A stretch of DNA of 64,000 nt from IMG/VR virus record IMGVR_UViG_3300035491_000281, one strand, 5' to 3'. The translations under genes were made by a program, and so were the position numbers. The DNA comes from a virus. Its lineage: Duplodnaviria > Caudoviricetes. This document shows, piece by piece, positions 10,266 to 11,804 of this stretch (the stretch's first letter is position 1; each line of letters starts with the position of its first letter). The notes beneath the pieces were generated by a model. It was not told where the DNA came from. It was given only the letters and a program-made list of their open reading frames with translations, and did no database searches.

Positions 10266-10411
10266 GGTGGGTTCGATTCCCACCACTGTGGTAACTACCA
10301 CACCCCACCGGACTGCCGGTGGCGCATCACCCCAGAGATGCCTCTCCCGACCTTCGCCGTTACCTCACTATGACTGACGAGTTATAGCGTACGGCAAGAC
10401 CATCGGGAGGG
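10266..10411 (+). ncRNA. Candidate structured RNA B (hairpin array with canonical T-loop)
   Basis: GGTGGG-TTCGATT-CCCACC; GTGGT/ACCAC; CCACCGG/CCGGTGG; GCATC/GATGC; nested CTCTCCCGA/TCGGGAGGG, GCCGT/ACGGC, CTATGACT/AGTTATAG. Confidence 0.5.
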
Positions 10412-11247: not shown

Positions 11248-11289
11248 GCAGAGACTTTTACCTGAGTCGTTCTACTATAGGGCGACTTT

Positions 11290-11804
11290 GAGGTAAAAGG
11301 GGAGTCATCGTGTCACCGTCAACGTGCCCCATCCACTGTGACGTGTGTTTCGGCGAACACTGGTGCGGTGACTCCACCTATTGCCTTATCTTATAGCCTG
11401 GCTGTAGTTCAATCGGTTAGAACACCATGTGGTCCATTACTCCCCCGCCAAGTTCGGGATTGAGGATGGGGTGCTGCTGTGGAGGCTCTCGGATCGAAGC
11501 CGAGCGGCCGGGCCCATATTACCAGCTCGCGGATGTTGCATTTTGCCTGAGCGCCCATCTAGCGCTCCACGGATGGCGGGTTTCCCTCGTCGCCCTACAA
11601 GCCATCATCGGGGTCCGATACCCCCGCATCCGCCCTTTTATCCAATGTAGTGGCTGTCCCTAACTTACGGGTTCGGAACGGAAAGAAGCTACTGCGTTGG
11701 ACCCCTTTTGCTCCCCAGCGTCCACCCCAACGTCCTGCACAGACAACCAGAACACTGGGGAGCAAATTCATTTACGACCCACCCTTCGGGGTGGGTTTAT
11801 GCCG
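11290..11804 (+). ncRNA. Candidate structured RNA cluster C around a tRNA-like domain
   Basis: GGAGTCATCG/CGGTGACTCC domain, GCGGATG/CATCCGC domain, 12-bp TTTGCTCCCCAG/CTGGGGAGCAAA stem crossed by CGTTGG/CCAACG, terminal hairpin. Confidence 0.5.
11396..11516 (+). tRNA. Non-canonical tRNA-like cloverleaf with a 48-nt anticodon loop
   Basis: Acceptor GCCTGGCTG/CGGCCGGGC then CCA; T8A9; D arm GTTC-AATCGGTTA-GAAC; anticodon stem CCATG/TGTGG; variable AGGCT; T arm CTCGG-ATCGAAG-CCGAG. Confidence 0.6.

What the first reader, a model, noticed from the sequence alone, without database searches (positions are those of the whole stretch)
11396..11516. tRNA-like cloverleaf with a 48-nt anticodon loop, 9-bp acceptor and ATCGAAG T-loop
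Seen: all four arms sit at tRNA spacing with an encoded CCA. The anticodon loop (11430-11477) is 48 nt instead of 7 and can fold (CCAT/ATGG, CTC/GAG, CCCG/CGGG). The acceptor has extra pairs ending in G:C before CCA, reminiscent of the tRNA-His G-1:C73 pair, and the T-loop starts with A instead of T. Inference: too regular for chance but unable to decode as is. It could be a tRNA with a short non-self-splicing intron (which would need an endonuclease and ligase), a decoy for anticodon nucleases or uncharged-tRNA sensors, or an RNase P processing handle.
Basis: partly seen in the sequence, partly recalled or inferred. Interest (0 to 1): 0.75.

Follow-up and report, generated by a model that had tools for sequence, protein, structure and literature searches.

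The report
Oversize tRNA-shaped RNA in jumbo phage
A phiKZ-like jumbo phage that has no ordinary tRNA genes keeps one tRNA-shaped RNA whose anticodon loop is replaced by a conserved 45-nt bulged hairpin; relatives carry the same oversize gene, unannotated, and comparison suggests a non-decoding structured RNA rather than a tRNA with an intron.

Summary
Window 11396-11516 (+) is a complete cloverleaf: a 9-bp terminal stem (canonical 7 bp from 11398), D arm, T arm with loop AUCGAAG, a 5-nt variable loop and CCA. 48 nt stand where a 7-nt anticodon loop belongs.

A tRNA covariance model built from related phages' tRNAs hits it at 34.6 bits (E 3e-6). It is the only full-length hit in the 231-kb genome. 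Default ARAGORN and Rfam miss it.

It is neither chance nor decay.
- Strain variants change only two bases inside it, and both turn G·U into A-U in predicted stems.
- Four other phiKZ-like phages carry an orthologous oversize gene. Over the five sequences, 96% of cells pair and 18 of 26 pairs show compensatory change, including a helix inside the insert.
- About 14 such oversize tRNA genes occur in 48 related genomes. They are unannotated, for example in Ralstonia phage RP12.

The orthologues share no anticodon, and two cannot give a U33 loop by any single excision. The sister phage keeps the terminal stem and the bulged hairpin but has lost the D and T arms. No BHB motif, splicing endonuclease or RNA ligase was found.

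Best reading (about 0.5): an unspliced, tRNA-scaffolded ncRNA. Splicing is not excluded (about 0.2). The function is unknown. A second structured RNA lies 13 nt downstream.

The parts
11396..11404 (+). 5' strand of the terminal (acceptor) stem. It is 9 bp as encoded; the canonical 7-bp acceptor starts at 11398.
   Evidence: All 9 pairs are kept in the sister phage L004, 4 of them with changes on both sides.
11407..11423 (+). D arm: GUUC stem, 9-nt loop with G18 G19, GAAC.
   Evidence: The helix is 100% paired in 5 orthologues.
11425..11429 (+). Anticodon stem, 5' strand (CCAUG).
   Evidence: The strain variant 11479 G>A turns U11428·G11479 into U-A.
11431..11475 (+). Conserved insert module. 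It consists of a 3-bp helix (11431-33 with 11473-75), a 3-nt bulge GGU (11470-72), a 5-bp helix CCAUU/GAUGG (11434-38 with 11465-69), a single A (11439) and an apical hairpin (11440-64). The putative anticodon GCU (11473-75) is base-paired inside the module.
   Evidence: The inner helix is 100% paired with 4 of 5 pairs compensatory in the orthologues. There are no strain changes in it.
11478..11482 (+). Anticodon stem, 3' strand (UGUGG).
11483..11487 (+). 5-nt variable loop AGGCU (G46; U48 pairs with A15).
11488..11504 (+). T arm: CUCGG / AUCGAAG / CCGAG. A54 stands where U54 is usual.
   Evidence: The helix is 100% paired with 4 of 5 pairs compensatory.
11505..11513 (+). 3' strand of the terminal stem.
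   Evidence: The strain variant 11506 G>A turns U11403·G11506 into U-A.
11514..11516 (+). Encoded CCA, not conserved among strains.
   Evidence: variants read UCU and CCU. L004 has CCA after its 9-bp stem.
11529..11633 (+). Neighbouring structured RNA ('RNA2'): an 8-bp closing stem enclosing four hairpins. It begins 13 nt after the tRNA-shaped RNA.
   Evidence: (33 pairs, 8 compensatory, none broken against L004). All strain variants are compatible with the structure.

Best explanation
The element is a stable, non-decoding, tRNA-shaped RNA: a natural 'tRNA scaffold'. It probably descends from a tRNA gene of the tRNA island that related phiKZ-like phages carry at this place.

Shown:
- The acceptor, D and T arms and the tertiary-contact bases are kept, so the RNA should fold into the tRNA L-shape.
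- The anticodon loop is replaced by a conserved module: helix, 3-nt bulge, helix, then an apical hairpin.
- This architecture is conserved, with compensatory changes, in five phage lineages.

Inferred:
- The tRNA body serves for maturation (RNase P at the 5' end, 3' trimming and possibly CCA addition) and for stability.
- The module at the far end of the L is the working part, most likely a binding site for a phage or host protein. The RNA would then act as an adaptor or decoy, in the manner of bacterial Y RNAs.
- It is not spliced and does not read codons.
For: (1) tRNA body. R2 scores 34.6 bits, E 2.9e-6. It is the only full-length hit in the window and in the genome.

(2) Selection on structure within the species. 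Only 2 substitutions fall in 118 nt across the variant contigs, and both are G·U to A-U in the acceptor and anticodon stems. The next 140 nt carry 8-10 changes per variant.

(3) Orthologues in four other phiKZ-like genomes (G007, G027, G021, G018). 96.1% of cells are paired and 18 of 26 pairs have compensatory change. No shuffle out of 500 reaches this, and slid controls give 31-45%. All five helices are supported, including the inner helix of the insert.

(4) No decoding signature. The stretch between the anticodon stem and the module differs completely between orthologues. A single excision that leaves a 7-nt loop with U33 gives GCU, GUU, or GCC/GAC, or is impossible in two of the five. In the window the 'anticodon' is base-paired and position 37 is G.

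(5) The sister phage L004 keeps a 9-bp terminal stem plus CCA and the module (13 of 14 arm pairs kept, 3 compensatory, GGUCCA identical). It has no D or T arm and is not hit by the tRNA model.

(6) This phage has no ordinary tRNA at all yet keeps this gene.

(7) No splicing endonuclease, RtcB, Rnl1, Rnl2 or RNase III domain was found in the phage genome. There is also no BHB geometry: one 3-nt bulge, a 5-bp helix and one A.
Against: - No RNA data exist, so neither the ends nor the unspliced state is shown.
- Excising 11431-71 does give a formally acceptable loop, UUGCUGC, with U33.
- Another family in related phages (L080, L081) looks like a true tRNA-Glu(UUC) with an insert at the canonical 37/38 position. 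Some removal mechanism may therefore exist in this phage group.
- A host enzyme could do the cutting and joining, and the host is unknown.
- No binding partner of the module is known.
- The module is short, and its likeness between the window type (GGU...GCU) and the G007 type (GUU...AAC) is mainly structural.
- The genome record is rated 77% complete, so the absence of genes is not final.
Confidence: 0.5

Rival explanations
1. It is a genuine tRNA gene with a short, protein-dependent intron. An unknown endonuclease (phage or host) would cut near 11430/31 and 11471/72, at the 3-nt bulge. A ligase would then join the halves to give a 79-nt tRNA with anticodon GCU.
For: - ARAGORN -i models it this way, with loop UUGCUGC and U33.
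- The predicted 3' cut lies inside the conserved 3-nt bulge.
- The tRNA body is fully intact.
- Oversize tRNA genes recur in the tRNA islands of related phages. One family (L080, L081) gives a canonical Glu-UUC loop after excision at 37/38.
- 'Enigmatic introns' in huge-phage tRNAs are on record for Lak megaphages (10.1101/356790; PMC6784885).
Against: - Orthologues share no anticodon, and two cannot form a U33 loop.
- There is no BHB motif.
- No EndA, RtcB, Rnl1, Rnl2 or RNase III domain was found in the phage.
- A GCU anticodon sits on a body with a 5-nt variable loop. By established knowledge, bacterial SerRS needs the long variable arm.
- G37, A54 and an 8-9-bp acceptor are atypical for a decoder.
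- The sister phage keeps the insert but not the tRNA arms.
Confidence: 0.2
2. It is a processing handle ('punctuation'). The tRNA shape exists only to recruit RNase P and 3'-end nucleases, which cut a longer non-coding transcript and release or define the ends of the neighbouring structured RNA2. Known parallels are tRNA-linked sRNAs and the tRNA-like units of murine gammaherpesvirus 68.
For: - RNA2 starts 13 nt after the element in the window and about 5 nt after it in L004.
- RNA2-like elements also lie downstream of the orthologues in G007 and G027.
- L004 keeps a terminal helix stacked on a second helix plus CCA. That layout resembles minimal RNase P substrates, a comparison from established knowledge that was not tested here.
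Against: - A handle would not need the conserved module in the anticodon arm.
- In G007 and G027, RNA2 is about 700 nt away with an ORF in between.
- The CCA, which helps RNase P, varies between strains.
Confidence: 0.15
3. It is a dying tRNA pseudogene hit by an insertion, with no function.
For: - The phage has lost all ordinary tRNAs.
- A lone T arm without a cloverleaf lies 1.1 kb upstream, at 10267-83.
- The L004 copy has lost its D and T arms.
Against: - Both strain substitutions restore Watson-Crick pairs.
- Compensatory changes occur in all helices across five lineages.
- The insert is older than the split of phages that share only 37-56% identity in a virion protein.
- The insert is single-copy, not a repeat.
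Confidence: 0.07

Closest known systems
'Enigmatic introns' in tRNA genes of Lak megaphages (Devoto et al., 10.1101/356790; PMC6784885)
   Same: These are oversize tRNA genes in very large phage genomes, with extra sequence in the anticodon-loop region. Bacterial-mode tRNA finders miss them. The inserts are highly conserved and no splicing mechanism is known.
   Different: The phage lineage and host differ (Prevotella megaphages against phiKZ-like phages of proteobacteria). No sequence relation was tested. In the window's family the orthologues lack a common anticodon, which argues against intron status. That comparison is not reported for the Lak phages.
Bacterial Y RNAs of the YrlA type (Chen et al. 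2014, PMC4201824)
   Same: It is a non-decoding RNA with a tRNA-like D/T/acceptor domain plus a second, protein-binding helix. [quoted passage not shown] This is the best model for how the element may work, as an adaptor.
   Different: - The topology is permuted. In YrlA the RNA ends lie in the protein-binding stem and the acceptor is closed by a loop.
- The Rsr-binding motif GNCGAAN0-1G is absent.
- There is no TROVE/Ro gene in the phage.
- There is no Rfam Y RNA hit.
Archaeal and eukaryal intron-containing tRNAs (bulge-helix-bulge introns)
   Same: A short, non-self-splicing insert sits in the anticodon arm and pairs with the anticodon. A 3-nt bulge lies at the predicted 3' junction.
   Different: - There is only one 3-nt bulge. 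The central helix is 5 bp, not 4, and a single A stands where the second bulge should be.
- The insert sits at 32/33, not 37/38.
- The phage has no splicing endonuclease or RtcB.
- The host range of the relatives is bacterial.
Engineered tRNA scaffolds and viral tRNA-like units
   Same: The tRNA body carries a foreign hairpin in place of the anticodon stem-loop, which gives processing and nuclease resistance.
   Different: Those are man-made, or Pol III-driven in an animal virus. Here the arrangement is natural, bacterial-viral and evolutionarily conserved.

Membership tests
Canonical (decoding) tRNA | Cloverleaf with D and T arms and the conserved tertiary-contact bases | tested here: met
   R2 scores 34.6 bits, E 2.9e-6. 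U8, A14, A15-U48, G18 G19, U55 C56 and G53-C61 are read.
Canonical (decoding) tRNA | 7-nt anticodon loop with U33 and a free anticodon | tested here: not met
   48 nt lie between the stem strands. GCU is base-paired within the insert. Default ARAGORN finds 0 tRNAs.
Canonical (decoding) tRNA | Reaches the Rfam RF00005 gathering score | tested here: not met
   There is no tRNA hit at the gathering score or at E<=10. Most of the other oversize genes of relatives do pass, at 31-52 bits.
Canonical (decoding) tRNA | Anticodon conserved among orthologues | tested here: not met
   Single excisions give GCU, GUU, GCC/GAC, or no U33 loop at all.
BHB-intron tRNA (archaeal/eukaryal type) | Two 3-nt bulges on opposite strands, separated by a 4-bp helix | tested here: not met
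   There is one 3-nt bulge (11470-72), a 5-bp helix and a single A.
BHB-intron tRNA (archaeal/eukaryal type) | Splicing endonuclease and RNA ligase available | tested here: inconclusive
   PF01974, PF01139, PF09414 and PF09511 give no hit in the phage. The PF09511 control rang nowhere, so that result is uninformative. The host is unknown and the record is 77% complete.
Group I intron in tRNA | Self-splicing ribozyme core (200 nt or more) | tested here: not met
   The insert is 41-48 nt and Rfam gives no intron hit.
YrlA / Y RNA | Rsr-binding motif GNCGAAN0-1G and a neighbouring TROVE (Ro) gene | tested here: not met
   The motif is absent from the element (the motif is taken from PMC4201824). 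PF05731 gives no hit.
tmRNA | tRNA-like domain plus tag reading frame | tested here: not met
   ARAGORN finds no tmRNA and Rfam gives none.
Oversize tRNA-shaped genes of phiKZ-like phages (family defined here) | tRNA body plus a 28-63-nt structured insert in the anticodon arm, with the helix / 3-nt bulge / 5-bp helix module | tested here: met
   By exon similarity the window element is closest to L082, L085, L087 and L089.

The most novel reading that the evidence does not exclude
Nucleus-forming jumbo phages may carry out protein-dependent tRNA splicing in a bacterial cell. The oversize tRNA genes, including this one and the Glu-UUC-like family, would be cut at a helix-bulge-helix signal by an as yet unrecognised endonuclease and then rejoined. 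That would be a pathway so far known only from archaea and eukaryotes.
Probability: 0.12. Interest if true: 0.9.

Novelty: new variant of a known kind. Interest (0 to 1): 0.64.

Why it matters
- About one in ten tRNA-model hits in phiKZ-like jumbo phages is an oversize gene that standard annotation misses. Counts of phage tRNAs and ideas about their roles are therefore incomplete.
- This phage has discarded every ordinary tRNA but kept the oversize one. That points to a function other than codon supply.
- If it is a scaffolded RNA, it is a natural counterpart of engineered tRNA scaffolds and a new class of phage regulatory or adaptor RNA.
- If it is spliced, it would reveal enzyme-driven tRNA splicing in a bacterial system.
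- Either outcome can be tested with one northern blot in a cultivable relative such as Ralstonia phage RP12.

Tried and rejected
- Rfam at the gathering score and at E<=10 gave nothing for the element.
- megablast and blastn against GenBank phages gave only short D-arm matches.
- An exact-pattern scan of viral contigs for the D arm plus T loop found none.
- Single-protein locus searches with three neighbouring proteins found none.
- The metagenome scan with the 175-aa neighbour returned one short contig that does not reach the element.
- That neighbour has only two clusters among 5.8 billion proteins, so close relatives are scarce.
- The three other ARAGORN -i calls in the genome have poor stems and 76-456-nt 'introns' that run through coding sequence. 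I rejected them as false.
- The insert is not a repeat or mobile element. It is single-copy in this genome, and the G007/G027 insert is single-copy there.
- The conserved upstream motif TTACCTGAGTCGT is not a recurring promoter motif in the genome. The sigma-70 and terminator scans gave nothing useful.
- The region upstream of the element (11279-11395) shows no convincing conserved fold.
- Y RNA/Ro idea: no TROVE gene and no Rsr motif.
- RNA evidence: no RNA holder was listed for the stretch.
- Literature searches found no description of oversize tRNA genes in phiKZ-like phages.

Full report
**Source and setting**

The window is the minus strand of bases 68505-132504 of a 231,290-bp IMG/VR virus record with direct terminal repeats. 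Its proteins place it among the phiKZ-like jumbo phages:
- An 890-aa protein is 48-52% identical to virion proteins of Pseudomonas phages Noxifer, PhiPA3 and PA1C.
- The 510-aa virion protein next to the locus is 44% identical to Noxifer's.
- PHROG hits include terminase, SNF2 helicase and ribonucleotide reductase.

The DNA occurs in tar-pit, landfill and wastewater metagenomes. In Noxifer, the arm of the genome that corresponds to the element's position carries tRNA-Lys, Asn, Asp and Tyr. The element therefore sits where relatives keep a tRNA island.

**The observation**

- A 9-bp terminal stem (11396-11404 with 11505-13), then UA.
- A D arm (GUUC, 9-nt loop with GG, GAAC).
- A 5-bp stem (CCAUG/UGUGG) that encloses 48 nt.
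- A 5-nt variable loop.
- A T arm with loop AUCGAAG.
- CCA.

The MFE fold reproduces the closing stem and the D arm, and it turns the 48 nt into a long bulged hairpin stacked on the anticodon stem.

Default ARAGORN and Rfam find nothing. Shuffled genomes give about 0.1 such call per genome, so that alone is weak.

A stricter test is a covariance model built from 19 ordinary tRNAs of related phages (A7, R2). It hits 11398-11515 at 34.6 bits, E 2.9e-6, with the anticodon hairpin replaced by a 52-nt local end. This is the only full-length hit in the window and in the whole genome. The bases that make the tRNA's tertiary contacts are all in place.

**Selection within the species**

Contigs from four other metagenomes hold variants 1-4% diverged.
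- Inside 11396-11513 there are two substitutions. 11479 G>A makes U11428·G11479 a U-A pair in the anticodon stem. 11506 G>A makes U11403·G11506 a U-A pair in the acceptor.
- The insert has no change.
- The following 140 nt have 8-10 changes per variant.
- The CCA itself varies (UCU, CCU), so it is not under constraint.

**Relatives**

Close relatives are rare. The 175-aa neighbour has only two clusters among 5.8 billion proteins.

The sister phage (L004, 56-68% protein identity) has, at the same place, an RNA of the same length. It has a 9-bp terminal stem followed by CCA. All nine pairs are kept, four of them with changes on both sides. It also has the same bulged hairpin: 13 of 14 pairs of the extended arm are kept, three are compensatory, GGUCCA is identical, and a 3-nt bulge sits at the same spot. 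Its D and T regions instead pair with each other into a rod, and the tRNA model does not hit it.

Running R2 over 48 phiKZ-like virus records gave about 135 tRNA hits. About 14 of these are oversize (95-133 nt). They have intact tRNA bodies (34-58 bits) and 27-63 nt in place of the anticodon loop.
- Default ARAGORN finds none of them.
- Rfam's tRNA model passes 12 of the 14.
- In Ralstonia phage RP12, only the ordinary tRNA-Asn that lies between two of them is annotated.

They fall into orthologous families. One family (L080, L081, L083) has a conserved 5' flank UUUUCA, a hairpin that varies with compensatory changes, and a conserved 3' flank. It would give a canonical Glu-UUC loop if the insert after position 37 were removed.

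The window's element belongs to another family, with L082 (G007), L085 (G027), L087 (G021) and L089 (G018). These are the most similar in their exon parts. They share the insert module: a 3-bp helix, a 3-nt bulge on the 3' strand, a 5-bp helix (CCAYY/GRUGG or ACGUY/RACGU), then an apical hairpin, which follows a single A in four of the six copies (window, L082, L085, L087).

On the five-sequence alignment (A9), 96.1% of cells pair and 18 of 26 pairs show changes on both sides. No shuffle out of 500 reaches this, and slid controls pair at 31-45%. Each of the five helices, including the one inside the insert, is supported. With five related sequences the shuffle test overstates significance. The slid controls and the per-helix counts are the firmer evidence.

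**Is the insert an intron?**

Several results argue against it for this family.
- The stretch between the anticodon stem and the module, where an anticodon should be, is unrelated between orthologues. The 39-nt module core of L082 and L085 differs only by one compensatory pair.
- Enumerating all single excisions that leave a 7-nt loop with U33 gives GCU (window), GUU (L085), GCC or GAC (L087), and nothing for L082 and L089.
- In the window the would-be anticodon is base-paired, position 37 is G, the variable loop is too short for a serine tRNA, and the acceptor has 8-9 pairs.
- The geometry is not bulge-helix-bulge.
- The phage genome has no match to the splicing endonuclease, RtcB, Rnl2, RNase III or CCA-adding families. 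The Rnl1 search was uninformative because its control failed.
- The sister phage has kept the insert and the terminal stem but not the tRNA arms.

In favour of an intron:
- The window's excision product has a formally correct loop.
- The Glu-like family suggests that something in these phages may remove inserts.
- A host enzyme cannot be excluded.
- No RNA data could be obtained.

**Best reading**

The element is a conserved, non-decoding, tRNA-shaped RNA whose anticodon arm displays a conserved bulged hairpin. The tRNA body most likely provides maturation and stability. The module most likely binds a factor. This part is inference, and the nearest working model is the bacterial Y RNA (YrlA), a tRNA mimic that tethers proteins (PMC4201824). 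The element is not a member of that family: the topology is permuted, the Rsr motif is absent and there is no TROVE gene.

The nearest published phenomenon is the 'enigmatic introns' of Lak megaphage tRNAs (10.1101/356790; PMC6784885). I found no report of oversize tRNA genes in phiKZ-like phages in the searched library.

That this phage has lost all ordinary tRNAs but kept this gene supports a role other than codon supply.

**Neighbouring RNA**

Thirteen nt downstream lies RNA2 (11529-11633), an 8-bp closing stem around four hairpins.
- Against L004, all 33 pairs are kept and 8 are compensatory.
- All seven strain changes fit the fold.
- Weaker but full-length matches with the same architecture, and a conserved AUCUA loop motif, lie about 700 nt downstream of the orthologues in G007 and G027.

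The two RNAs may be made from one precursor. This keeps the 'processing handle' reading alive as a rival or as a partial function.

**Verdict**

The feature is real and conserved. The intron reading is less likely than a scaffolded non-coding RNA. The function is open.

Noticed in passing
window 11529-11633 (+): RNA2 is a roughly 105-nt structured RNA: an 8-bp closing stem and four hairpins, one with loop CCAUCUA. It is conserved with 8 compensatory pairs in sister phage L004. Weaker full-length matches lie about 700 nt downstream of the oversize tRNA genes in G007 and G027. No Rfam family matches it.
   Followed up: partly
window 10267-10283 (+): A perfect T arm (GUGGG UUCGAUU CCCAC) with no cloverleaf around it, 1.1 kb upstream of the element (R2 13.9 bits). 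It may be a remnant of the lost tRNA island or part of another structured RNA.
   Followed up: partly
L093 and L094 = Ralstonia phage RP12, NC_041911 131865-131972 and 132077-132187: Two unannotated oversize tRNA-shaped genes (108 and 111 nt) flank the annotated tRNA-Asn of a cultivated phage. They are convenient for a wet-lab test.
   Followed up: partly
L080, L081, L083 (virus records G047, G033, G030): This family of oversize genes would give a canonical tRNA-Glu(UUC) loop if 35-41 nt after position 37 were removed. The flanks are conserved (UUUUCA and UAACAACGU) and the hairpin varies with compensatory changes. It is the best candidate for a true short intron in these phages.
   Followed up: partly
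L084, L086 and L043 21048-21135: A third orthologous family (acceptor CCCUGGG...) has an anticodon arm of 28, 38 or 42 nt. It forms a long, nearly perfect hairpin with no visible anticodon loop.
   Followed up: no
whole genome G000: The 231-kb phage has no canonical tRNA gene, whereas many relatives carry 2-12.
   Followed up: yes
L004 3359-6490: The SNF2 helicase of the sister phage is 1043 aa, against 690-710 aa here, and it carries a LAGLIDADG hit. This probably marks an intein or homing-endonuclease insertion.
   Followed up: no
L006 7272-7326 (-): In another 56%-identity relative there is a 55-nt acceptor plus T-arm 'minihelix' with UUCGAAU and ACCA, just downstream of the virion protein gene (R2 17 bits, E 0.04).
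   Followed up: no
window 11258-11278 (+): The motif TTACCTGAGTCGT-TCTACT is conserved upstream of the non-coding block in L004 as well. It is not repeated elsewhere in the genome, so its role as a promoter is unproven.
   Followed up: partly
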